DNA of 64,000 nt from Candidatus Berkelbacteria bacterium. GTDB taxonomy: Bacteria > Patescibacteriota > UBA1384 > 2-12-FULL-50-11. The notes under the pieces are model-generated. The model saw nothing but the letters and a program-made list of their open reading frames with translations. It was not told the origin of the DNA and searched no databases. Made by a program: the position numbers and the translations under genes. Below are positions 17,031 through 27,658 of the stretch, in pieces. Every line of letters starts with the position of its first letter. Within the stretch, counting starts at the first letter, position 1. The stretch covers positions 151,113-215,112 of the forward strand of contig CP066697.1 in the NCBI GenBank assembly GCA_016432625.1. The letters run 5' to 3'.

Positions 17031-18008
17031 ATGACAGATGTTTTAGTTATCGGTTCAGGTATGGCAGGGCTTTCAGCAGCGATTTACGCTGCTCGTTATA
17101 ATTTGGAAACGCTTGTTATTGGTCATGAGTTTGGCGGTGCCACCTCAACTGCTTGGACTATCGAGAACTATCCCGGCTACGTCTCAATCGATGGCTACGA
17201 CCTAATGATGAAGGTTAAAGAGCAGGCAGAAAAGACCGGCGCCAAGATTGTCACGGACCGAGTTATTAAACTCGAAAAGAAGAACGATCACTTCGTGGCT
17301 CAAACTTTTGAGGGCGAAATGTACGAAACTAAAACTATTATTCTTGCCTGTGGCGCGGCGCGAAAAAAAATGGGACTGGCACGTGAAGATGAGTTCGCAC
17401 TCGGAAAAGGCGTCCACTACTGCACTACCTGCGACGGCCCGCTCTACAAAGGCAAAACCGTCGCCGTAATCGGTAGCGGCGATTCGGCGGTCAAGGGTAT
17501 AAAGCTCGCCGTACAGTACGCTGAGAAAATTCACTGGCTAATCCGTGGTGAAGTTATTAAAGCCGAGCCGTTCAATTATGAAAAAGTTAAACACTACTTC
17601 GGCGACAAGATTATTGTTCACTACAACACGTCCATTACCGAGCTTTTGGGCGAGAAACGACTTAACGCCGTCAAGCTTAATACCGGTGAGACCCTAGAGC
17701 TTGATGGCTTGTTCGTTGAGATCGGCGCTCTTCCTGAAGTTGAGCTCGCTCACCACTTAGGCGCGGCGCTCGACGAGTTCGGTTTTATAAAAGTAGACAA
17801 CATGATGGAGACTAACGTTGATGGCATCTACGCTGCCGGCGACGTGACGAACTTTTTCGGCCACTTTAAGCAAGACATTACCGCCGCGGCAATGGGTTCA
17901 GTCGCCGCCACTAGCGCTTTTAAGCATATTCAACACGCCCCAACAGTCCAGGAGGCGAAAGCCACGCCCGCCGAGCAGCCATCAACGGTTAGTAATTTGA
18001 ATAAGTAG
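17031..18008 (+). CDS. trxB: Thioredoxin-disulfide reductase
   Basis: VIGSGMAGLSAAIYAAR FAD motif, redox-active CTTCDG, VIGSGDSAV NADPH motif. Confidence 0.9.
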   Translation: MTDVLVIGSGMAGLSAAIYAARYNLETLVIGHEFGGATSTAWTIENYPGYVSIDGYDLMMKVKEQAEKTGAKIVTDRVIKLEKKNDHFVAQTFEGEMYETKTIILACGAARKKMGLAREDEFALGKGVHYCTTCDGPLYKGKTVAVIGSGDSAVKGIKLAVQYAEKIHWLIRGEVIKAEPFNYEKVKHYFGDKIIVHYNTSITELLGEKRLNAVKLNTGETLELDGLFVEIGALPEVELAHHLGAALDEFGFIKVDNMMETNVDGIYAAGDVTNFFGHFKQDITAAAMGSVAATSAFKHIQHAPTVQEAKATPAEQPSTVSNLNK

Positions 18009-18054
18009 TGGGTCGGGTGGGGATTTCCTCCGCTGCGCTCCGGTATCCCCACCC
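18008..18054 (-). repeat. tRNA-Lys 3'-end copy 1 (short form) abutting the trxB stop codon
   Basis: GTGGGTCGGGTGGGGAT (18008-18024) is identical to the tRNA-Lys 3' end read on the plus strand. It pairs with ATCCCCACCC at 18045-18054 around a 20-nt CGCT-rich loop. Confidence 0.75.
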
Positions 18055-18090: not shown

Positions 18091-18100
18091 CTCTGCATTG

Positions 18101-18196
18101 GTGGGTCGGGTGGGGATCTCGCGCCTTCGGCGCTTGAAAGCTCCTTCGCTCACGCTCTGTCGCTATCGAACCCACTTCGTGCGTTCTCTCCCCACC
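18101..18196 (-). repeat. tRNA-Lys 3'-end copy 2: pseudo-tRNA 3' fragment with a roughly 48-nt structured insert in the T-loop
   Basis: Minus-strand reading is GTGGGTTCGAT[AGCGACAGAGCGTGAGCGAAGGAGCTTTCAAGCGCCGAAGGCGCGAG]ATCCCCACCCGACCCAC. Removing the bracketed part restores the T-arm and acceptor 3' strand of the neighbouring tRNA-Lys. Confidence 0.75.
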
Positions 18197-18224: not shown

Positions 18225-18235
18225 GCTTCCGTTTG

Positions 18236-18307
18236 TGGGTCGGGTGGGGATCGAACCCACGACACACGGCTTAAAAGGCCGTTGTTCTACCACTGAACTA
18301 CCGACCC
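18236..18307 (-). tRNA. tRNA-Lys (anticodon TTT)
   Basis: Acceptor GGGTCGG/CCGACCC, anticodon stem ACGGC/GCCGT with loop CTTTTAA, T-arm GTGGGTTCGATCCCCAC. Confidence 0.9.
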
Positions 18308-19351: not shown

Positions 19352-19957
19352 TTAGCGTTGCAGATTGCGGAGTTGCTCGTACAGATCACGTTCTTCGCGT
19401 GAGGGGCGCTTGGGGATTTCAATATGGATAACAACCGTCAAATCTCCCCGACCGCGGCGAGTTTGGGCGCCTTTGCCACGAAAACGAAAAGCCGCGCCTT
19501 CGGGTGTGCCGGGTGGAATCTTCAGCTCGATCTCATCGCCAAAATTGGTTTTGAAACGAACCGTGTCGCCAAGCACCGCTTGCGGGATCGAAACTGCCAA
19601 TTGAACCTGGACTTGAGAGAAGGCTGATTCGAACAAATCCTCAAAAATTGAGCCAAAACCTCCGCCGCCCTGACCACTAAAACTGCTGAAGTCGAAACCC
19701 CCAGCTTGACTCCCGAAACCGCTTTGGCTGCCAAAACCGGCTCCGGCCCGTGCCCCAGCGTGGCCGAACTGATCGTACTGGGCTCGTTTGTTTTTATCCC
19801 CCAGTACCTGGTAGGCCTCGTTTATTTCCTGGAACGCCGCCTTATCCCCACCTTTGTCGGGATGTAATTTGTGCGCTTTCGAACGGTAGGCCTTTTTAAT
19901 TTCGCCATCGCTGGCACCGCGGGGAACACCTAAAACTTCGTAAAAATCTCGAGCCAT
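19352..19957 (-). CDS. dnaJ: DnaJ-like co-chaperone, truncated architecture (J domain, G/F region, one C-terminal beta domain, no zinc finger)
   Basis: [35 protein letters not shown] with the HPD tripeptide, followed by a G/F-rich stretch. No CxxCxGxG repeats. 201 aa. Confidence 0.8.
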
Positions 19958-19979
19958 ATTTTCGATATTTTACCCTAAA

Positions 19980-20008
19980 AATGTCAAGTTTGCTTTACAG
20001 AGTATAAT
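19980..20008. promoter_or_regulatory. Divergent dnaJ-like / ybjQ promoter region containing operator copy O3 (TGTCAAG-TTTG-CTTTACA, 19982-19999)
   Basis: On the minus strand the palindrome reads TGTAAAG-CAAA-CTTGACA, with GACATT at the position where the other two copies have TACAAT/TACATT. On the plus strand a TATAAT at 20003-20008 lies 6 nt before the ybjQ ATG. Confidence 0.5.
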
Positions 20009-20014
20009 GAATTC

Positions 20015-20338
20015 ATGGATAAGGAAAATATTACAACCTCTTTTGAGCTACCGAATAAGAAAATTGTTAAAAATTTCGGCCTAGTCCGCGGCATAACCGT
20101 TCGCTCCCGATCGATTTTTGGGACAATCGGCGGCTCGCTGCAGACCATTCTTGGCGGCAATATCACCCTGTTTACCGAGCTGTGTGAGAAAACGCGCCAG
20201 GAAGCCTATGCCCTGATGGTCAAACACGCGGAAGAGATGGGCGCCAACGGCATTGTTATGGTTCGCTATGACGCCAACGAAGTTATGAGCGGTGTAACCG
20301 AAGTGCTCTGCTACGGCAGTGCAGTGGAGGTTGAATAA
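20015..20338 (+). CDS. ybjQ: YbjQ/UPF0145 family protein
   Basis: 107 aa. GLVRGITVRSRSI...GGNITLFTELCEKTRQEAYALMVKHAEEMGANGIVMVRYD matches the YbjQ pattern. Confidence 0.8.
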   Translation: MDKENITTSFELPNKKIVKNFGLVRGITVRSRSIFGTIGGSLQTILGGNITLFTELCEKTRQEAYALMVKHAEEMGANGIVMVRYDANEVMSGVTEVLCYGSAVEVE

Positions 20339-20565
20339 TGGACGAGGTAAAAAAAGTTAAAGTGAATATGCCTAGAGGCATTACGATCGTAAACCGTTAC
20401 AAAGGACCGGGCGGTGGCGCTTATTTCCTGGGTTTCCTAGGGGCTTTCATTTACTACATGCAAACGGCGGCTACTTTCGGCGATGGTGTTATCGGATTTC
20501 TAAAAGCCCTTGTCTGGCCGGCGTTTTTGGTTTATCACATCTATAAATTCTTGGGGCTCCAGTAG
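20338..20565 (+). CDS. Small membrane protein
   Basis: 75 aa with two hydrophobic helices. The start overlaps the ybjQ stop (TAATG). Confidence 0.5.
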   Translation: MDEVKKVKVNMPRGITIVNRYKGPGGGAYFLGFLGAFIYYMQTAATFGDGVIGFLKALVWPAFLVYHIYKFLGLQ

Positions 20566-20574
20566 AATTTAGGC

Positions 20575-21240
20575 CTAAACCACCGATACCTCACCGTTTT
20601 CCACAACTAAATACGTTGCTACCGGGGGTTCGAATATCCCGGAATTTGCGAAATGGTTTTCCTTGTCAACGACTGCCAAATGGCTGTGAGCGCAAATTAG
20701 CCAGTGTTCTTTAGGCAAATTGGTGTTTTTCCAGGCAATCATCTTTTCGTTGTCCTTTCGGTAGATGTGTAAAAACGGCTTGCCGAAGTTTTGTATACAA
20801 AAGCGCTCAATTTTTACCGCGATCTCATAGAACCAGTAAAAATAGGCGATTCGAGGCAGGCGCATGTCTAAAGTCGGGGCAAGTTTGTCGCCATGGCGGA
20901 CATGGAACGTGACGCCGTTTTGAATAAAATCGTATTCGTTACTTGTCAAAACTGAAAACTCGTTCGTTCGCGAGTCATTTTTATATTCCCGGTCGTGGTT
21001 GCCGTAAAGGTAAACTGCCTCCTTGTTTTTGAATAAGCCAAAAAGCTTTCTCCAGTCGAAGGTTAGAAATTCTTCCAAAGTGTAAGCAAAACCTTCCCAA
21101 AGATCGCCGTTAATTATTAGCTTGTCAGCTGGACTCACGGCGCTATTAATTTGGGCGAATTTTATCTCGTTAAACTTTTTACCTAAATGTAAGTCGGAAA
21201 TTATTACCACCTTTTTCCCGCTGAGGTCTTCCGGTGTCAT
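20575..21240 (-). CDS. Calcineurin-like metallophosphoesterase
   Basis: Motifs ISDLHLG, NGDLWE, GNHD, HGD and AHSH in the canonical order. Confidence 0.7.
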   Translation of the reverse strand: MTPEDLSGKKVVIISDLHLGKKFNEIKFAQINSAVSPADKLIINGDLWEGFAYTLEEFLTFDWRKLFGLFKNKEAVYLYGNHDREYKNDSRTNEFSVLTSNEYDFIQNGVTFHVRHGDKLAPTLDMRLPRIAYFYWFYEIAVKIERFCIQNFGKPFLHIYRKDNEKMIAWKNTNLPKEHWLICAHSHLAVVDKENHFANSGIFEPPVATYLVVENGEVSVV

Positions 21241-21324
21241 TGCTTTGCAATTTTACTACAAAGCGGTCCAGCATAAGAGGAATGGGGAGGGTACAGGAAT
21301 CCGCCCGGCGAGTGCCGAGCGGAT

Positions 21325-21588
21325 CTAGTGCGGCCAAAGCACCCGATAGATAGTGATGCTGGCCATGACGACTGGGAAAACGATGCCAAAGAAAGCGATG
21401 AACTTTTTCAGGCCGTTGCTGTGGAAGTATGCCCTCCAGTAAACAACGAAGACGAAGACGTTGATCGCCAGCTGAATGACAGCGGCGATCTGGTTTGCTC
21501 CCTGGAAAACATGGGAGAAGTTGGCGATCAAGAAGAACGCGAACCCCATGCTTCCGGAGAGAATCATCCAGAACGTACTGTTTTTCAC
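21325..21588 (-). CDS. Small three-helix membrane protein
   Basis: GTG start preceded by GGAGG at 9 nt and by a near-consensus promoter. 87 aa. Confidence 0.55.
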   Translation of the reverse strand: MKNSTFWMILSGSMGFAFFLIANFSHVFQGANQIAAVIQLAINVFVFVVYWRAYFHSNGLKKFIAFFGIVFPVVMASITIYRVLWPH

Positions 21589-21615
21589 TGCTATTCAACC
21601 TCCGAAGTCTGGTGG

Positions 21616-21644
21616 ATTATATTCCTCAAACCTGTAAAAGTCAA
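21616..21644 (-). promoter_or_regulatory. Sigma-70-type promoter for the 87-aa membrane protein
   Basis: Minus strand reads TTGACT - 17 nt - TATAAT. Confidence 0.6.
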
Positions 21645-21787
21645 GGATTGGGGCGGCTTTTTCTCGGGTATGCGAAAAGAAAAATAGAGAGCCTAATTAC
21701 CTTTTACTGCATAGAAAAGGAACTGAAGTATAACTTTTGGTTATTCTACAGCCAGTCTCTTTTTCGGCAAACTCACGAATCTCCGTT

Positions 21788-22159
21788 TCAAACGCTTTTC
21801 TTTTGGCCGTCTCTAACTGAGAGTTGGTCAGAGTACGTGTTACGGAGCTTGATATATTCATCAATCGTGTAGGCCCTCTGCCAATCACACTCCAACACAT
21901 CAACCAAATGGAAAAAATTATTTTCAAGTTTCGCTCTGCGCTCATCAATCTGCTCCCGCGAGCGAAGATCACGGATACCTAAGTATTTTTCATAGATTCC
22001 TTTCGCTCTCAGATGGAAAGAATCCAGTTTGGTTTCGATTAACTCTCTATTTTTCCACCAAGAATTACGGGCGGTATCCAGAATTTCGTTGGCGTGAGTC
22101 CGTACACATTTGCCCTGGCATCTTCTTTCGGCCTGAGCGAAAAATCTTCTGTGACGCTT
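21788..22159 (-). pseudogene. Start-less open frame continuing the 163-aa ORF in the -1 frame (frameshifted gene, programmed slip, or homopolymer error)
   Basis: 123 stop-free codons with no ATG, GTG or TTG in the first 80 or so. They encode ...NEILDTARNSWWKNRELIETKLDSFHLRAKGIYEKYLGIRDLRSREQIDERRAKLENNFFHLVDVLECDWQRAYTIDEYIKLRNTYSDQLSVRDGQKKSV. The frames join at an A5 run (T5 on the plus strand, 22050-22054). Confidence 0.45.
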
Positions 22160-22530
22160 TCAAAAGTTCCTTTTGGGCATAATATTACTACCACCTTTGG
22201 CATAACGGCCGTGCCGAATTGAATCAACCTGTTCTGGTAGTGAGTCTTTGTCCAATAGAATAAAACTTCAAGGCCTTCACTCTTTTCTTGAAAGGCTTCC
22301 CAGAAGTGTTGAAAATCCATTTTATTGGTAATAAACCCAGAAATTTCTCGATCAATACCCTTGCACCTCAGCGAGATAGTGGCGTAGGGAACGTCTTTTA
22401 CCTTAGATATTACTTCGCCATTTTCAACCGTACTACCAAGCGGTCGGAGTTCGTTAGCTATACATAACTTGCTATCGATAACCGACCACTCATTATCTCT
22501 AAGTAGGACAACTTCTTCTGAGTTATTCAT
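22039..22530 (-). CDS. Hypothetical protein (AT-rich islet), probably the 5' part of a longer frameshifted gene
   Basis: 163-aa ORF with ATG start. No recognisable motif. Confidence 0.5.
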   Translation of the reverse strand: MNNSEEVVLLRDNEWSVIDSKLCIANELRPLGSTVENGEVISKVKDVPYATISLRCKGIDREISGFITNKMDFQHFWEAFQEKSEGLEVLFYWTKTHYQNRLIQFGTAVMPKVVVILCPKGTFESVTEDFSLRPKEDARANVYGLTPTKFWIPPVILGGKIES

Positions 22531-22593
22531 AGCTGAATTTTACTACTTCCTGAATTGATTCAAAGAGAACTGCTCCCTATGCATGTGCCGTTC

Positions 22594-23952
22594 TTATTCT
22601 TTGAGACCCATCTCGGACCGTATATCGCTAATAAAAGTCTTCGCTTTCTCTTCAAGTATATTTTGATCGGGCCTGACACTTGCTAGGAACAACTCGAAAT
22701 ATTTTAGTGCCTTAACTAGGTCGCGCAACTTTTTATAGGCAATGTAGCCAAGCCAAAAATGCAGTTGATTCCTATCAGGATAAGTTTCAAGGAGATTCAA
22801 ACAAAACTGTTCAACCTCTTGGATGGTAAGCCATTCTTCGGAATACTCATGCTCAACAATTTTCCTCGAGGACTTATAAGCCTCGTCGTATTCCGATAAC
22901 CAATAATGCAAAAATGCATCGCTGTACCTCCACTCCTGGGCTCCATTAGCTAAGTTCTTCGCAAGCGCGATTTCTTGTTGCGCCGCCTTCGCATCACCTT
23001 CCTTGAATAGTTCCACGGCTCTTACTAGATGAAAACCGTACTGATTAGGGTAATAACTCTGTGCTCTTTTCGAAAACGTTGAGTACGACGCTAGGTCATC
23101 CTTCAGTAAAGACATTCGTGCTTTTAGCAAATAACTACCTGCCAATAATTGTTTGGCCTTGATCTTTACTTCCTCAATATTTGGAGGTAAATCATTTCTT
23201 TGAAAAAGCTTATCGTCAATTAGGCGCTCGTGGAGGGTTATTGCGAGGTTGACGTCACCAGATAAGAATGCAGCAATACCTACTATGTACTTTGCCGATA
23301 AATAAACAAAATCAGCGGTTAAGGCGAACCCTCTAAATCGGAATTCTTCTAACATCTCCACTTCTTTAGGTAGGGATCTTACAAAGTCGGCAGATAATTT
23401 AAACTGACTGTTTTTGTCTATCGGTGAGTGCACTACTAAACCACTTAAATCAATAAAAATCTTTTCCTTTTCTCCATCAGGACGTTTTTTAACGTCTCCG
23501 AAGACGAAATAGTGTCCATGGACTGTCTCATTTATTGTTCGCGCAATTTCATAGTTTTTTACTTTCTCGGCAATATGGTTGGGTACTTTTACTACTGTGA
23601 CTAACTCACTCAATCCATCTGCGACTAAGTTTTTTCTTACCTGGTCAAGAAAGTCCTTTTTAGCATCTATTTCCTCGAGGTTATCCTCGCTGTAAAGCGC
23701 GAAAACTAATCCAAGCTTCCCCTCGGGTATTTTTGGAAGCCACTTCCTTACTACTATCCAAGCAACTATCTCAATTAAGAGTAATACTACGAGGCCCCAT
23801 CTTAGATAACTGACTCCAAAAAGTTCTAAGAGGGGTTTATAGATAGCCGCAAATATAATGCCCGTTAACACTACCGTGACTAATAATCCGCGAAAACTTG
23901 CAAAGTTAATTCTGATGTATGACAAATAGGGTCGCAGTTTATCAATTGGCAT
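22594..23952 (-). CDS. Two-TM membrane protein with a central alpha/beta-like domain and C-terminal TPR-like repeats (AT-rich islet)
   Basis: The ATG at 23952 gives MPIDKLRP... The track ORF instead begins at a TTG at 24000, immediately after the dnaK stop. TM helices occupy residues 30-90. The C-terminal half is helical-repeat-like (YGFHLVRAVELFKEGDAKAAQQEIALAKNL...). Confidence 0.6.
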   Translation of the reverse strand: MPIDKLRPYLSYIRINFASFRGLLVTVVLTGIIFAAIYKPLLELFGVSYLRWGLVVLLLIEIVAWIVVRKWLPKIPEGKLGLVFALYSEDNLEEIDAKKDFLDQVRKNLVADGLSELVTVVKVPNHIAEKVKNYEIARTINETVHGHYFVFGDVKKRPDGEKEKIFIDLSGLVVHSPIDKNSQFKLSADFVRSLPKEVEMLEEFRFRGFALTADFVYLSAKYIVGIAAFLSGDVNLAITLHERLIDDKLFQRNDLPPNIEEVKIKAKQLLAGSYLLKARMSLLKDDLASYSTFSKRAQSYYPNQYGFHLVRAVELFKEGDAKAAQQEIALAKNLANGAQEWRYSDAFLHYWLSEYDEAYKSSRKIVEHEYSEEWLTIQEVEQFCLNLLETYPDRNQLHFWLGYIAYKKLRDLVKALKYFELFLASVRPDQNILEEKAKTFISDIRSEMGLKE

Positions 23953-24000
23953 CAGCCTATAAAGAAAGAGAGCTGATAGCTCTCTTTCTTGTTTCTCCAA

Positions 24001-25998
24001 TTAGTCTTTTTTGTCCCCGTCATCTTTTGGTTCTTCCGGCACATTTGTGTCCGGGGTGCCATCCGCCTTCGCCGAGGCTTCGTCGGATGAATCGTCTTTG
24101 GGGAGTTCTTCTTCCGGCTTCGGCTGTCCCTCCTGCGCTGAAGCTTCCTCCTTCGCAGATGCTTCGGAGGACGAGTCGGCGGGCGAGTCATACATCGCGG
24201 CGCCGACTTTTTGGAGGGCGGCACTCAATTTTTCCGCCTCCTCTTTGATTTTGTCTTTATCGTCGTTGTGGATGACGGCTTTGACGGCGGTAACGGCGTC
24301 TTCGACTTCGCGTTTGTCGTCCGGTTTGATCTTATCGCCCGCGTCTTTGAGGGTTTTTTCGCTCAAGTGAATAAGGTTTTCGGCGGCGTTTCGTTCTTCG
24401 ACCAGCTCTTTTTTCTTGGCGTCGTCGGCGGCGTGAGCCTCGGCCTCGGTTTTCATCTTTTCGATCTCTTCTTTGGATAGCCCACTCGAAGCCGTAATGG
24501 TGATGTGTTGTTCTTTGGAAGTGGCTTTGTCTTTGGCTTTGACGTTCAGAATTCCGTTTGCGTCGATGTCAAACGTCACCTCAACTTGCGGGACGCCGCG
24601 GGGAGCCGGTGGAATACCATCGAGATGGAACTTACCTAGCGTCCGGTTGTCGGAGGCCATTGGCCTTTCGCCTTGTAAGACGTGGATTTCCACAGATGGC
24701 TGGTTGTCGCTGGCCGTGGAAAACGTTTCCGTTTTTGAAGCGGGAATAGTGGTATTGCGCTCAATGAGCGGCGTCATTACTCCACCCAGAGTTTCGAGAC
24801 CCAAGGTTAGCGGGGTGACGTCGAGCAGAAGAATATCCTTAACTTCGCCTGATAAGACGCCGCCGTTAATGGCCGCGCCTAAAGCAACCGCTTCGTCGGG
24901 GTTAACGCCTTTCGATGGCTCTTTGCCAAAAACATCTTTAACAACTTGCTGAATCATCGGCATGCGGGTCATCCCACCGACCAAGATAACTTCGTCAATG
25001 TCAGATTTGGTGAGTTTGGCGTCTTTCAAAGCGGCTTCGCAGATGCCTCGGGTTTTCTTGATGAGGTCGCCAACTAAACTTTCCAATTTTGCGCGCGACA
25101 GATTCATCTGCAGGTTTTTTGGACCGTCAGCGTCAGCGGTAATAAACGGCAAGTTGATCTCGGCTTCCTGGGTTTGAGAGAGCTCGATCTTGGCTTTTTC
25201 AGCTGCTTCTTTGACCCGTTGCATAGCCATAGCGTCGCCAGTTAGATCGACACCCTCTTTGGCTTTGAATTCGTCGACGATCCAGTTCATCACTTGAATG
25301 TCGATGTCGTCTCCACCGAGGTGAGTATCACCGTTCGTCGAGAGCACTTCGAAGCTGGATTCGCCTTTGTCTTCGCCAATTTCGATGATGGTGATATCAA
25401 ATGTTCCACCACCAAAGTCGTAAACGGCGACTTTCTGGTCTTTTTTGTCTTCTTTGTTAATGCCGTAGGCGAGAGCCGCGGCGGTTGGTTCGTTGATAAT
25501 GCGCTTAACTTCGAGGCCAGCAATGGTGCCGGCGTCTTTGGTAGCCTGGCGCTGGGAGTCGTTAAAGTATGCCGGGACGGTAATAACAGCGCCGTCGACT
25601 TTTTCGCCGAGATAAGCCTCGGCATCAGCTTTGATTTTGGCCAGGATCATTGAGGAGATTTCTTGGGGGGTAGACTCGTTTTCGGCCATTTTGACCTTAA
25701 CGCCATCGCCGCTCTTTACAATTTTGTAAGGCATCAGTTTGATGTCGCGCTGAACTTCTTCGTCAGTGAAGCTACGACCCATTAAGCGTTTAACAGAGTA
25801 GATAGTATTTTCCGGATTGGTGACAGCTTGGCGCTTGGCGAGCGTGCCAACAAGGCGTTCGCCTTTTTTATTGACCGCGACGATGGACGGCACTAAGTTG
25901 CCGCCCTCAGCGGTTGGGATCATTTTGGCTTTACCGCTTTCGATGACGGCTGAAGCCGAGTTAGTTGTTCCCAGGTCAATTCCGATTATCTTAGACAT
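24001..25998 (-). CDS. dnaK: Chaperone DnaK (Hsp70) with an acidic low-complexity C-terminal tail
   Basis: [22 protein letters not shown]-type motif ([12 protein letters not shown]), [11 protein letters not shown]. The start is set at the ATG at 25998 rather than the in-frame GTG at 26004. Confidence 0.95.
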
Positions 25999-26056
25999 TT
26001 GCACCCCATTCTATGTCTGAGATATCCAAAACGGTGTTTTTGATAATCTTTCCCAT
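25991..26056 (-). CDS. Possible 21-codon upstream ORF overlapping the dnaK start
   Basis: ATG at 26056 with an AAGGAGGAGAG tract about 10 nt upstream. Encodes [21 protein letters not shown]. Its stop (TAA, 25993-25991) lies 2 codons after the dnaK ATG in another frame. Confidence 0.35.
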
Positions 26057-26217: not shown

Positions 26218-26967
26218 ATGACCCTTCGAGAAACTTTACAATCCAATCGCCAACCCGACGTCGCCCTGGCGGACGACGTCGCCTTCGCCGTGATCGACTC
26301 GATCCGCCCGTTGATGGGCGCTGAACCACCTCCGGCTCGCGTCGACGGCGACCAAAGCCAACGGATGCGCTCCGCCCGCCTGGCCTACTTCATGCTTCGA
26401 GAACGAAGCGCGCACCTCGACACCTGTTTGCGCGTCATCGGTTCGGAAGAATTTCCGGTCGATGTACTCATTGCCGACTTGAAGGATGCCGAAAAGCGAC
26501 TTCATGCTCGGGCTCACAACGAGAACCAGACACTTAGTTGGCTGGGTCTTGCCGCTGTCGATTTCGATACGGTACTGATAGATGGGAACCAGCACGTCGA
26601 CTTCGACAAAGTCGTTTGTTACGGTTCCGCGACGCAAGAACAAGCCTTCTTTGGCACGATCGCCGGCCTGATGCCGCGACTGGCGTCCGAGGACAACACA
26701 AGCTTCACTAGTCACCTAGCAAAGTCTCTGTGCGCGGCCACGCGCCAGAAGCTCTGCAACGACTGGAACGGTACTGAGCTTTGTCTTGATGCCACGGCGT
26801 TCGGCTTCGCGCTGGGAACACGCGACCTGTATAGGCAGGCACAGACCCTGGCGTTCGAAAACAAGGAGCCGCTGCAACTGGATCATTTCGGCCGAGCAAA
26901 AGGCTGGGAGTCTCTCGCGCTTTTCGCGAGCTATCCGACGATCCGCGCCGCTATCCTGCCCAAATAA
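26218..26967 (+). CDS. Hypothetical protein (GC-rich insert between grpE and dnaK)
   Basis: 249-aa ORF with ATG start, on the strand opposite the chaperone genes, followed by a terminator. Confidence 0.5.
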   Translation: MTLRETLQSNRQPDVALADDVAFAVIDSIRPLMGAEPPPARVDGDQSQRMRSARLAYFMLRERSAHLDTCLRVIGSEEFPVDVLIADLKDAEKRLHARAHNENQTLSWLGLAAVDFDTVLIDGNQHVDFDKVVCYGSATQEQAFFGTIAGLMPRLASEDNTSFTSHLAKSLCAATRQKLCNDWNGTELCLDATAFGFALGTRDLYRQAQTLAFENKEPLQLDHFGRAKGWESLALFASYPTIRAAILPK

Positions 26968-27106: not shown

Positions 27107-27658
27107 ATGCAGAAATTCACCCCGCTTGGCGGACCAATGCTTCAAGGCATTGAGATGCTAGCACGACAACACGGCCTTCGCGGCCAGTTCAGTATTCTCC
27201 TTGCCGTGCGAACGCAGGAAATGATTGCGGACCACGACGAGAGATGCAGCGGCTGGTCAGTAATGGCTAGCGCCCGCAAAGACGGGAAGATACTCATTTA
27301 CCCATGGATGTGGGAAAGGTTTCTTGAAGAGGACGTCGCGACTGCGGTTGGCTGGATGGCCAATACGCTCGCCGAGGAAATCGGGCATCTCATCGATTAC
27401 GAGCGGTTTCCGGCCTGGACGGAAAGCTTGCTGGATTGGCGGTTTCTGCTGATTCGCAATCTCCGAGACCGGCTCGGGAAATCGATCCCGCGCCTACAGC
27501 CGTCGCTCGTCAAGCTCTACGAATGGGCTTACAGGCGCAGCTTCTTTGAGAAAAGAGCGAAGCGCTTCGCCGAGGATCATGAAGAGCAGTACTTCGCTGC
27601 TATCTGGCCTCACTTCCACTACTACAGGGAGGTCTATCTCAACTTGTCACGGGAATGA
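27107..27658 (+). CDS. Hypothetical protein (GC-rich insert). It contains an AEEIGH motif that loosely resembles a degenerate HExxH/ImmA-type site.
   Basis: 183-aa ORF. AGGAGG lies 6 nt upstream of the ATG and a TATAAT lies further upstream. Confidence 0.55.
   Translation: MQKFTPLGGPMLQGIEMLARQHGLRGQFSILLAVRTQEMIADHDERCSGWSVMASARKDGKILIYPWMWERFLEEDVATAVGWMANTLAEEIGHLIDYERFPAWTESLLDWRFLLIRNLRDRLGKSIPRLQPSLVKLYEWAYRRSFFEKRAKRFAEDHEEQYFAAIWPHFHYYREVYLNLSRE

What the first reader, a model, noticed from the sequence alone, without database searches (positions are those of the whole stretch)
21650..24000. AT-rich islet directly downstream of dnaK encoding a 2-TM/TPR-like protein and a broken partner gene
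From the dnaK stop (24001) down to about 21.65 kb the sequence is clearly AT-richer. Spot counts give 19/60 G+C at 23401-23460 and 24/60 at 22681-22740, against 34/60 just inside dnaK. The islet encodes only orphans. One is a roughly 450-aa protein with two N-terminal TM helices, a central alpha/beta-like domain and C-terminal TPR-like repeats. The other is a 163-aa ORF plus out-of-frame continuations. The islet separates dnaK from the rest of the chaperone neighbourhood (the dnaJ-like gene lies 4 kb further on). A membrane sensor-like repeat protein plus a small partner in a compositionally foreign patch is the kind of layout seen for accessory or defence modules. Nothing in the sequence identifies a function.
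Basis: partly seen in the sequence, partly recalled or inferred. Interest (0 to 1): 0.55.

Follow-up and report, generated by a model that had tools for sequence, protein, structure and literature searches.

The report
Restriction-linked membrane TPR gene beside dnaK
The AT-rich patch after dnaK is a horizontally acquired insert whose intact gene belongs to a large, unnamed family of membrane-anchored repeat proteins that in other microbes usually sits inside restriction-modification (anti-virus) operons, so it is a credible but untested candidate phage-defence gene; its "partner" is an unrelated ORFan that may be decaying.

Summary
Window 21650-24000 has 40.9% GC against 50.8% elsewhere and is the deepest trough in the 64 kb. 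Third-codon-position GC is 0.40-0.42 against 0.52-0.76 in neighbouring genes. The window is a Candidatus Berkelbacteria genome.

The 452-aa protein (22594-23952, minus strand) is not an orphan. A full HMMER scan found 1,107 cluster representatives, nearly all 440-490 aa and aligned end to end. They carry no Pfam family beyond TPR repeats and no PADLOC model. A confident AlphaFold model (pLDDT 94.6) shows a 2-TM hairpin, a cytoplasmic alpha/beta domain and a TPR-like array.

In 32 other loci from many bacterial phyla, one archaeon and one viral contig, 17 have a restriction or defence gene as immediate neighbour. Thirteen of these lie inside or beside type I hsdM/hsdS/hsdR operons. The gene is AT-richer than its host in 21 of 23 loci, and its tree conflicts with taxonomy.

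None of 80 related dnaK loci carries it, and one relative has dnaK-dnaJ-cvpA contiguous. The 163-aa ORF has no detected homologue and is not a conserved partner.

Best reading: a solo, horizontally acquired copy of an uncharacterised restriction-linked candidate defence gene.

The parts
21650..24000 (.). AT-rich patch, the most foreign part of the dnaK-dnaJ spacer
   Evidence: GC is 0.409 against 0.508 +/- 0.015 elsewhere, the lowest 2,350-bp window in the 64 kb. It also has the top tetranucleotide distance in the window.
22594..23952 (-). Intact gene for a 452-aa protein (NCBI HZB70_01985). Layout: 2-TM hairpin (about residues 22-40 and 50-68), cytoplasmic alpha/beta domain (about 78-201), long helix (202-230), TPR-like array (234-448).
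   Evidence: Searches give the ORF, annotation and start. AlphaFold2 with 64 sequences gives pLDDT 94.6 and pTM 0.86. Hydropathy is and the positive-inside count. The family has 1,107 representatives.
23962..23990 (-). Perfect 13-bp stem with a 3-nt loop, between the dnaK stop and the ATG of the 452-aa gene. Probably a dnaK terminator or attenuator.
   Evidence: Found as repeat I5. RNA fold energy is -22.7 kcal/mol, z = -4.3, with 0 of 200 shuffles as stable.
22039..22530 (-). 163-aa ORFan (NCBI HZB70_01990)
   Evidence: ORF. Its only hit in the word-indexed search of 5.8 billion proteins is itself. No Pfam, NCBIfam, PADLOC, PHROG, PDB or phage hit. GC3 is 0.42.
21697..22038 (-). Stretch with no long single-frame ORF. 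It is open in the -1 frame from inside ORF163 to a TGA at 21788-21790, then open again in the ORF163 frame to a stop at 21697. Possible decayed 3' part of ORF163, with candidate slips at A-runs 22050-22054 and 21796-21804. This is unverified.
   Evidence: Three-frame translation and the sequence itself. The -1-frame stretch has no start codon for about 80 codons, read directly from the sequence. No Rfam match.
21616..21644 (-). Promoter-like TTGACT-17-TATAAT (11 of 12 matches), followed by GGAGG and the GTG start of the 87-aa membrane ORF. Marks the lower edge of the patch.
   Evidence: and the sequence.
24001..26004 (-). dnaK, native flank (GC3 0.585)
19352..19957 (-). Short dnaJ-like gene (201 aa), native flank. 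In relative L026 it directly follows dnaK.
   Evidence: Pfam DnaJ and DnaJ_C. 47% identical to the L026 gene that starts about 120 nt after the dnaK stop, or 58 nt between stop-to-stop ORFs.
19958..21649 (.). Rest of the lineage-specific dnaK-dnaJ spacer: an 87-aa TM ORF, a Metallophos gene, YbjQ and a 75-aa TM ORF. GC3 is native-like.
   Evidence: None of these genes was found in 80 related dnaK loci. The change-point fit gives 19930-24029.

Best explanation
The patch is a horizontally acquired insert in the dnaK-dnaJ spacer of a Candidatus Berkelbacteria genome.

Its one intact gene encodes a solo copy of a large, unnamed protein family of about 450 aa. The protein has an N-terminal 2-TM hairpin, a cytoplasmic alpha/beta domain with conserved E89, D100, H147, R157 and H175, and a C-terminal TPR-like array. 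Elsewhere this family sits inside or next to restriction-modification operons, most often hsdM-hsdS-X-hsdR.

I read it as a stand-alone, single-gene candidate anti-phage (abortive-infection-type) module that travels through the same hotspots as other restriction-embedded defence genes.

Proposed mechanism (inferred, not shown): the cytoplasmic TPR array senses a phage protein or a disturbed restriction complex. This changes the oligomeric or conformational state of the protein. The output is either damage to the membrane through the TM hairpin or an activity of the alpha/beta domain.

The adjacent 163-aa ORF is an unrelated ORFan, possibly decaying, that arrived with the insert or next to it. 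It is not a functional partner conserved with the family. The adjacency to dnaK is incidental.
For: Shown, foreign composition: GC and GC3 are both low.

Shown, absent from relatives:
- 0 of 80 loci with DnaK at 58-73% identity carry the family gene.
- dnaJ lies downstream on the same strand in 46 of them, with a median gap of 128 nt.
- L026 has dnaK-dnaJ-cvpA contiguous, with a dnaJ 47% and a cvpA 39% identical to the window's.

Shown, family size and architecture:
- 1,107 representatives at E<=1e-3 and 381 at E<=1e-30, nearly all 440-490 aa and aligned end to end.
- AlphaFold2 model at pLDDT 94.6.
- The segment after TM2 holds 4.4 K/R per 12 residues against 0.08 per residue in the inter-TM loop, so the soluble domains are cytoplasmic.

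Shown, genomic context: all 22 loci found with a motif pattern in species-representative genomes are true family members.
- HsdS, HsdM or HsdR are immediate neighbours in L004, L009, L011, L017, L019, L020, L021 and L023, and in the viral contig L105. Intergenic spacing is 0-26 nt.
- L006 has a DpnII restriction enzyme upstream. L008 has ApeA and a type IIG enzyme upstream.
- Look-ups of nine further members: type I operons for P0008, P0009, P0010 and P0014; a Type ISP enzyme for P0040; HinfI plus Mrr for P0005.
- In total 17 of 32 informative loci have a restriction or defence gene next door.
- In a census of 89 neighbour proteins the top Pfam families are Methylase_S, N6_Mtase, Eco57I, HsdM_N and HSDR_N.

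Shown, mobility:
- GC3 is lower than in neighbouring genes in 21 of 23 loci, mean difference -0.117, Wilcoxon p = 4.5e-6.
- In the tree an archaeal copy is sister to an Omnitrophota copy, and Bdellovibrionales, Levybacteria and Portnoybacteria copies cluster together.

Precedent: PrrC and DarTG2 are defence genes embedded between hsdS and hsdR. 'Guilt by embedding' has been used to predict defence genes (PMC12255303; bioRxiv 10.1101/2024.01.29.577857).
Against: - No experiment exists for any family member.
- No PADLOC model matches any of 64 members, and no literature on the family was found.
- In this window no restriction gene lies within 64 kb.
- In the pattern-derived tree, the window's nearest loci (L001, L005, L013, L018) are not inside type I operons. 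The closest look-ups at 32-35% identity are restriction-linked.
- About half of the sampled loci show no recognisable defence neighbour.
- The sample of loci was chosen by a motif and by hit rank, not at random. No formal background rate was computed.
Confidence: 0.6

Rival explanations
1. The protein is an accessory or regulatory subunit of restriction-modification enzymes, not an autonomous defence gene. For example, it could tether or regulate the enzyme at the membrane where foreign DNA enters. The window copy would then be an orphaned remnant of a lost restriction operon.
Against: It accompanies mechanistically unrelated restriction types: type I, DpnII and HinfI type II, type IIG, Type ISP and Mrr type IV. 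It also occurs with no restriction gene nearby: the window, L001, L013, L106 and L116. That pattern fits a hitch-hiking autonomous module better than a dedicated subunit. No Hsd remnants are detectable in the patch.
Confidence: 0.15
2. It is mobile-element cargo with a non-defence role, such as a membrane stress sensor or an addiction-type toxin kept in check by a small HTH protein. In this genome the patch is simply a decaying insertion with no current function.
For: Small HTH genes lie directly upstream in L006, L007, L014 and L106, and a ParE toxin pair lies beside L106. Serine recombinases are nearby in L007 and L019. The neighbouring ORF in the window looks degraded.
Against: The window gene is full length and keeps the residues conserved across the family. 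The dominant neighbours are restriction genes, not transposition or conjugation genes. No match was found in the plasmid or phage collections.
Confidence: 0.15
3. It is a TPR co-chaperone or membrane adaptor of DnaK, placed after dnaK for functional reasons.
For: It lies immediately downstream of dnaK on the same strand, 48 nt away. Many structural matches are Hsp70 or Hsp90 co-chaperone TPR domains such as Tom71, P58IPK, FKBP52 and STI1.
Against: 0 of 80 related dnaK loci carry it. None of the pattern-derived family loci compared by sequence (L001, L003-L024) encodes DnaK, DnaJ or GrpE nearby, and no Hsp70 or DnaJ domain appears in the Pfam-annotated look-up loci. A strong hairpin separates it from dnaK. 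Its composition is foreign. This DnaK ends in ...DDGDKKD, not the EEVD-type motif bound by TPR clamps. TPR matches to co-chaperones are generic.
Confidence: 0.04
4. The islet is an artefact: a mis-assembly or binning chimera, or an AT-rich look caused only by amino-acid composition.
For: The genome is a metagenome-assembled genome. The family is rich in K, N, I, F and Y.
Against: An independent Logan assembly is identical over 21.4 kb spanning both junctions. The patch lies inside a 768,791-bp contig. The deviation is as strong at synonymous (third-codon) positions.
Confidence: 0.02

Closest known systems
PrrC anticodon nuclease of the EcoprrI type Ic restriction locus (hsdM-hsdS-prrC-hsdR)
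   Same: A single accessory gene embedded in a type I restriction operon, next to hsdS and hsdR. It is the textbook case of a back-up defence riding inside a restriction system, and is cited as almost exclusively embedded in type I systems.
   Different: No sequence or fold relationship. PrrC is a soluble ATPase-plus-nuclease protein, whereas this family is membrane-anchored with a TPR array. This family also occurs with other restriction types and alone.
[quoted passage not shown]
   Same: It occupies the same hsdS-hsdR site, which that paper describes as a likely recombination hotspot for defence systems. Small HTH regulators are found upstream in some loci of both.
   Different: DarTG2 is a two-gene toxin-antitoxin system that ADP-ribosylates DNA. 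There is no homology to the present family. Here there is one gene and no antitoxin-like partner.
Restriction-embedded candidate defence families found by 'guilt by embedding' (Payne et al. 2024 preprint; the PDC models in PADLOC)
   Same: The same kind of evidence applies: recurrent embedding in type I restriction systems. That study counted 3,231 embedded protein families.
   Different: None of 64 family members matches any PADLOC 2.0.0 model, including the PDC candidates. The family is therefore not in that catalogue as far as I could test.
Defence proteins with a TM-helix effector joined to a cytoplasmic sensor (CBASS, Pycsar and retron 2-TM effectors; SLATT domains)
   Same: An N-terminal TM hairpin joined to cytoplasmic domains, and a plausible membrane-disruption output.
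   Different: No Pfam SLATT or other effector model matches. No cyclase, reverse transcriptase or signal-producing partner gene is present. The resemblance is recalled from knowledge of those systems, not tested here.
TPR-based sensors in immunity (Avs/STAND TPR sensors, BcTir/Tpr, TPR-CHAT Csx29, IFIT proteins, RRNPP peptide receptors)
   Different: The similarity is generic to TPR arrays (Foldseek TM-score <=0.30). There is no NTPase, TIR or protease domain.
TolB N-terminal domain and PelC alpha/beta fold
   Different: Those are periplasmic domains, whereas this one is predicted to be cytoplasmic. There is no sequence similarity (profile against PDB sequences). The aligned residue ranges were not reported, so the assignment is inferred.

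Membership tests
Restriction-embedded (guilt-by-embedding) candidate defence genes | The gene recurs between or beside genes of a known defence system in unrelated genomes | tested here: met
   Family level: 13 of 32 loci are inside or beside type I hsdM/S/R operons. Four more are beside DpnII, ApeA plus type IIG, Type ISP, or HinfI plus Mrr.
Restriction-embedded (guilt-by-embedding) candidate defence genes | This particular copy is embedded in a defence system | tested here: not met
   No Hsd or other restriction gene was detected anywhere in the 64-kb window. The flanks are dnaK and an ORFan.
Known or candidate defence systems catalogued in PADLOC-DB 2.0.0 | Match to a PADLOC profile | tested here: not met
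   0 families for the window protein at E<=0.1, and 0 of 64 family members at E<=1e-3.
TPR repeat proteins | Pfam TPR model above its gathering score | tested here: not met
   The window protein scores 17.2 bits on TPR_16 against a cut-off of 32.7. Eighteen of 64 relatives hit TPR_2 at E<=1e-3.
TPR repeat proteins | Stacked helix-turn-helix repeat fold | tested here: met
Classical genomic island | Deviant composition and absence from relatives | tested here: met
Classical genomic island | Integrase or recombinase, tRNA target, flanking direct repeats | tested here: not met
   There is no recombinase ORF in 19.9-24.0 kb. No convincing flanking direct repeats were found. The nearest tRNA (Lys, 18235-18307) is 3.3 kb from the patch.
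PrrC / RloC anticodon nucleases | ABC-type ATPase domain plus a C-terminal nuclease domain | tested here: not met
   No ATPase or nuclease family appears in Pfam or NCBIfam. The model shows a TM hairpin, an alpha/beta domain and a TPR array.
Hsp70 TPR co-chaperones | Conserved linkage to or interaction with DnaK; an EEVD-type tail on the partner | tested here: not met
   0 of 80 dnaK loci carry the gene. No family locus has dnaK nearby. The DnaK tail here ends in DDGDKKD. Physical interaction is not testable with these tools.
   ORF163 and its continuations have no detected homologue. None lies in the pattern-derived family loci compared by sequence. Downstream neighbours of the family gene do not cluster with one another, apart from HsdR and HsdS.

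The most novel reading that the evidence does not exclude
The family is a previously unrecognised, widespread single-gene anti-phage system with a 2-TM hairpin, a TolB-N-like alpha/beta domain and a TPR sensor. It spreads between bacterial phyla, candidate-phyla-radiation lineages and archaea. It preferentially lodges in restriction-modification operons, possibly acting as a membrane-level back-up that fires when restriction fails. The Berkelbacteria copy would then be one of very few non-restriction defences identified in these reduced-genome bacteria.
Probability: 0.45. Interest if true: 0.65.

Novelty: new variant of a known kind. Interest (0 to 1): 0.5.

Why it matters
If the family is a real defence gene, it adds a membrane-anchored TPR sensor-effector to the set of systems that ride inside restriction operons. 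It has more than a thousand diverged members and a confident structural model, both ready for mutagenesis. It would also give a handle on phage defence in candidate-phyla-radiation bacteria. To my knowledge (not tested here), these bacteria largely lack CRISPR and are thought to rely on restriction enzymes.

For this genome, the result shows that the grpE-dnaK-dnaJ chaperone cluster has been split by lineage-specific insertions. This serves as a reminder that 'orphan' calls from word-indexed searches can be wrong: one homologue by that method against 1,107 by full HMMER.

If it is not a defence gene, the finding is an ordinary small horizontally acquired insert.

Tried and rejected
- Word-indexed homologue searches badly under-reported the family. 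They gave one homologue with the single protein and three hits with a 64-sequence profile. The full HMMER scan was needed.
- The search for related loci with the two-sequence alignment found nothing in viral or species-representative genome contigs. A hand-built degenerate DNA pattern for the Y-x-x-G-x-A-[AS]...S-G-[DN]...H motif worked.
- The first AlphaFold2 run, with two sequences, was unusable at pLDDT 52.
- The afdb50 fold library was unavailable.
- Profiles of the whole protein and of the alpha/beta domain against PDB sequences gave nothing significant. The BFVD viral structure search gave only weak TPR and glycosyltransferase-TPR matches.
- A metagenome scan with the neighbouring Metallophos protein found no relatives.
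- No match for the 452-aa protein in the plasmid or phage collections. No match for repaired ORF163 in PDB or phages.
- No Rfam family in 19800-24200.
- I considered an invertible or MITE-like element, because a 13-nt perfect inverted repeat brackets the 351-nt 'continuation' segment. I rejected it as unsupported: about 0.1 such pairs are expected by chance in 4 kb, and inversion would not restore an ORF.
- I considered programmed -1 frameshifting at GGAAAAAT (22050-22054). It is not a canonical slippery heptamer and no homologue exists to support a fused product.
- A Pfam '8xMP' hit in one of 64 members led nowhere in the literature.
Full report

Yes. The window averages 50.3% GC. The stretch 21650-24000 is 40.9% GC. 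All 2,350-bp windows that do not overlap it have mean 50.8%, sd 1.5% and minimum 47.3%, so this is the deepest trough in the 64 kb (profiles). It also has the largest tetranucleotide deviation.

The deviation is not an amino-acid effect. GC3 is 0.40 for the large gene and 0.42 for the 163-aa ORF. dnaK, grpE, dnaJ, cvpA, trxB and the 87-aa membrane ORF range from 0.52 to 0.76.

The upper edge is sharp at the dnaK stop codon. The lower edge at about 21650 coincides with a near-consensus promoter (TTGACT-17-TATAAT, 21644-21616) and a Shine-Dalgarno sequence in front of the native-looking 87-aa ORF. A one-segment change-point fit instead returns 19930-24029, which is exactly the dnaJ-start to dnaK-stop spacer. 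The patch is therefore the most foreign part of a larger lineage-specific spacer.

An independent Logan assembly of SRR12113407 is identical over 21,359 bp, including both junctions and the frame shifts.

**2. What is in the patch?**

The organism is a Candidatus Berkelbacteria metagenome-assembled genome with a 768,791-bp contig.

The large gene runs from ATG 23952 to stop 22594 on the minus strand and encodes 452 aa (HZB70_01985). The TTG at 24000 listed by the ORF finder is not the start. Both the NCBI annotation and the closest homologue begin at the ATG.

A perfect 13-bp hairpin lies between the dnaK stop and that ATG (23962-23990; -22.7 kcal/mol, z = -4.3). It is probably the dnaK terminator or attenuator.

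The 163-aa ORF (22039-22530, HZB70_01990) follows 63 nt downstream. After its stop the sequence stays open in the -1 frame from inside the ORF to 21788. That stretch has no start codon for about 80 codons. The sequence is then open again in the original frame to 21697. A-runs sit at both candidate slip sites.

The repaired 277-aa product hits nothing but itself in a word-indexed search of 5.8 billion proteins, a method that also under-detected the large gene's family. It has no Pfam, NCBIfam, PADLOC, PHROG, PDB or phage match. Whether it is a broken gene, a short real gene plus junk, or non-coding cannot be decided. There is no Rfam RNA in the region.

**3. The large protein is not an orphan.**

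The word-indexed search found a single homologue at 44% identity. A full HMMER scan of 1.84 billion representatives with the two-sequence profile found 1,107 proteins at E<=1e-3, 847 at E<=1e-10 and 381 at E<=1e-30. Almost all are 440-490 aa and aligned end to end. Sampled members are all 'hypothetical protein'.

Across 64 members Pfam sees only TPR repeat models, in a minority of members. PADLOC sees nothing.

With the 64-sequence alignment AlphaFold2 gives a confident model (pLDDT 94.6, pTM 0.86). Its parts are:
- an N-terminal amphipathic helix;
- two hydrophobic helices at about 22-40 and 50-68;
- an alpha/beta domain at about 78-201, with strands at 80-88, 118-122, 148-159, 162-173 and 197-201;
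- a long helix at 202-230 carrying the family's YIxGxAAxxSGD motif;
- eleven paired helices to residue 448.

The segment just after TM2 is strongly basic (4.4 K/R in 12 residues). The inter-TM loop is not (0.08 per residue). The soluble domains are therefore cytoplasmic.

Residues conserved in at least 80% of members include W65 in TM2. In the alpha/beta domain they are E89, D100, H147, G152, R157 and H175. On the long helix they are S231 and D233. In the repeats they are W341, Y343 and F347.

**4. Where the family lives.**

A degenerate DNA pattern for the long-helix motif retrieved 22 loci from species-representative genomes. All were confirmed as family members at E between 1e-69 and 1e-168. 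They come from many candidate-phyla-radiation lineages: Moranii-, Paceibacterota, Gracili-, Parcu-, Saccharibacteria, Levy-, Portnoy-, Peri- and Sungbacteria. They also come from Gammaproteobacteria, Nitrospiraceae, Bdellovibrionales, Caldisericaceae, Calditrichaceae, Acidobacteriota, an Omnitrophota genome and a Thermoplasmatota archaeon. One further copy lies on an IMG/VR viral contig.

Clustering of neighbour genes plus Pfam annotation shows the recurring partners are HsdS, HsdM and HsdR.
- The layout hsdM-hsdS-X-hsdR, or X between hsdM and hsdS, occurs in L004, L009, L011, L017, L019, L020, L021, L023 and L105. Spacing is 0-26 nt.
- L006 has a DpnII system upstream. L008 has a type IIG enzyme plus ApeA.

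Look-ups of nine more members, including the window protein's best hits, gave the following:
- type I operons for P0008, P0009, P0010 and P0014;
- a Type ISP enzyme for P0040;
- HinfI on one side and Mrr on the other for P0005;
- DNA methylases a few genes away for P0006;
- an HTH gene plus a ParE pair for P0151;
- no defence neighbour for P0011.

In all, 17 of 32 informative loci have a restriction or defence gene as the immediate neighbour. Thirteen of these are type I.

In a census of 89 proteins within three genes of the family gene, the commonest Pfam families are Methylase_S, N6_Mtase, Eco57I, HsdM_N and HSDR_N. PADLOC agrees. This was not a random sample and I computed no formal background rate.

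**5. Mobility.**

The family gene has lower GC3 than its neighbours in 21 of 23 loci (mean -0.117, p = 4.5e-6). Being AT-rich relative to the host is therefore a family trait, not a peculiarity of this window.

The family tree conflicts with taxonomy. The archaeal copy is sister to the Omnitrophota copy. Bdellovibrionales, Levybacteria and Portnoybacteria copies are near neighbours.

**6. Is the position after dnaK meaningful?**

No. Among 80 metagenome loci whose DnaK is 58-73% identical to the window's, none carries the family gene. None carries homologues of the other spacer genes or of the two ORFs between grpE and dnaK. dnaJ lies downstream on the same strand in 46 of them, with a median gap of 128 nt.

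In L026 the order dnaK, short dnaJ, cvpA is contiguous. Its dnaJ is 47% and its cvpA 39% identical to the window's. The window has the same order with 4.04 kb inserted between dnaK and dnaJ.

No family locus compared by sequence has dnaK, dnaJ or grpE nearby, and none appears in the Pfam-annotated look-up loci. The co-chaperone reading suggested by TPR matches to Tom71, P58IPK and FKBP52 is therefore not supported.

**7. How it most likely works.**

Shown:
- an intact, horizontally mobile gene;
- a membrane anchor with cytoplasmic alpha/beta and TPR domains;
- recurrent embedding in restriction operons of several mechanistic types, and occurrence alone.

Inferred: it is an autonomous single-gene defence or abortive-infection-type module. 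It uses the same insertion hotspots as PrrC and DarTG2. The TPR array would be the sensor, either for a phage protein or for a disabled restriction complex. The output would be the TM hairpin or the conserved polar cluster of the alpha/beta domain.

I put about 0.6 on the overall reading (acquired, restriction-linked, defence-type). I put roughly 0.25-0.3 on the specific sensor-to-membrane mechanism.

Rivals:
- a restriction accessory or regulatory subunit (0.15);
- non-defence mobile cargo or a functionless remnant in this genome (0.15);
- a DnaK co-chaperone (0.04);
- an artefact (0.02).

**8. Comparison with known systems, and novelty.**

The family works like, but is not a member of, the PrrC and DarTG2 class of restriction-embedded defences. 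It resembles TM-effector and TPR-sensor defence proteins only in layout. It fails membership tests for PADLOC families, for PrrC and for a classical integrase-bearing island. As a TPR protein it passes by fold but not by Pfam score.

I rate it a new variant of a known kind, namely restriction-embedded candidate defence genes. Thousands of such embedded families have been counted, so it is interesting and testable rather than startling.

Noticed in passing
window 26218-26967 (+) and 27107-27658 (+): Two high-GC (0.58 and 0.55) ORFs of 249 and 183 aa on the opposite strand separate grpE from dnaK. They have no Pfam, PADLOC, NCBIfam or PHROG family. No homologue was found in 80 related dnaK loci, where grpE and dnaK are mostly adjacent. 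They look like a second, GC-rich insertion in the chaperone cluster.
   Followed up: partly
window 19958-21649: The rest of the dnaK-dnaJ spacer is also lineage-specific. It holds an 87-aa 3-TM ORF (21325-21588, GC3 0.76, with its own promoter-like site) and a Metallophos phosphoesterase (20575-21240). The phosphoesterase has weak hits to PADLOC PDC-S10 (5e-4) and to PdeM (1.5e-6). The spacer also holds YbjQ (20015-20338) and an overlapping 75-aa TM ORF (20338-20565).
   Followed up: partly
window 18005-18025, 18098-18118, 18232-18252: There are three direct copies of a 17-21-nt sequence. The third copy is the 3' end of tRNA-Lys (18235-18307, minus strand). The two extra copies just downstream of the tRNA look like attachment-site scars of past integrations.
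   Followed up: no
window 21679-21691 and 22043-22055: A perfect 13-nt inverted repeat (GAAAAATAGAGAG / CTCTCTATTTTTC) brackets the 351-nt segment that holds the out-of-frame continuations of ORF163. It may be chance (about 0.1 expected in 4 kb), and inversion would not restore an ORF.
   Followed up: partly
window 19352-19957 (-); L026 2744-3349: The DnaJ here is only 201 aa, with a J domain plus part of the C-terminal domain and no zinc-finger region. The same short form (47% identical) directly follows dnaK in relative L026, so it is a conserved reduced co-chaperone rather than a truncation.
   Followed up: partly
L017 (Thermoplasmatota archaeon) and L020 (Candidatus Saelkia, Omnitrophota): The family proteins from an archaeal and a bacterial metagenome-assembled genome are close sisters in the tree, and both sit in type I restriction operons. 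This is either very recent inter-domain transfer or a binning error.
   Followed up: no
L114 5964-6773; L115 2811-5082; L008 4100-5536: Other genes share the restriction operons with the family gene. These are a Bro-N protein (L114), a NYN nuclease plus two unknown ORFs (L115), and ApeA (L008). The operons therefore act as multi-cargo defence hotspots.
   Followed up: no
family alignment A2 (one member): One of 64 family members hits Pfam PF24838 '8xMP' (octameric membrane protein family) at 5e-5. It may be relevant to how the TM hairpin assembles, but I could not identify the member or find literature on the model.
   Followed up: partly
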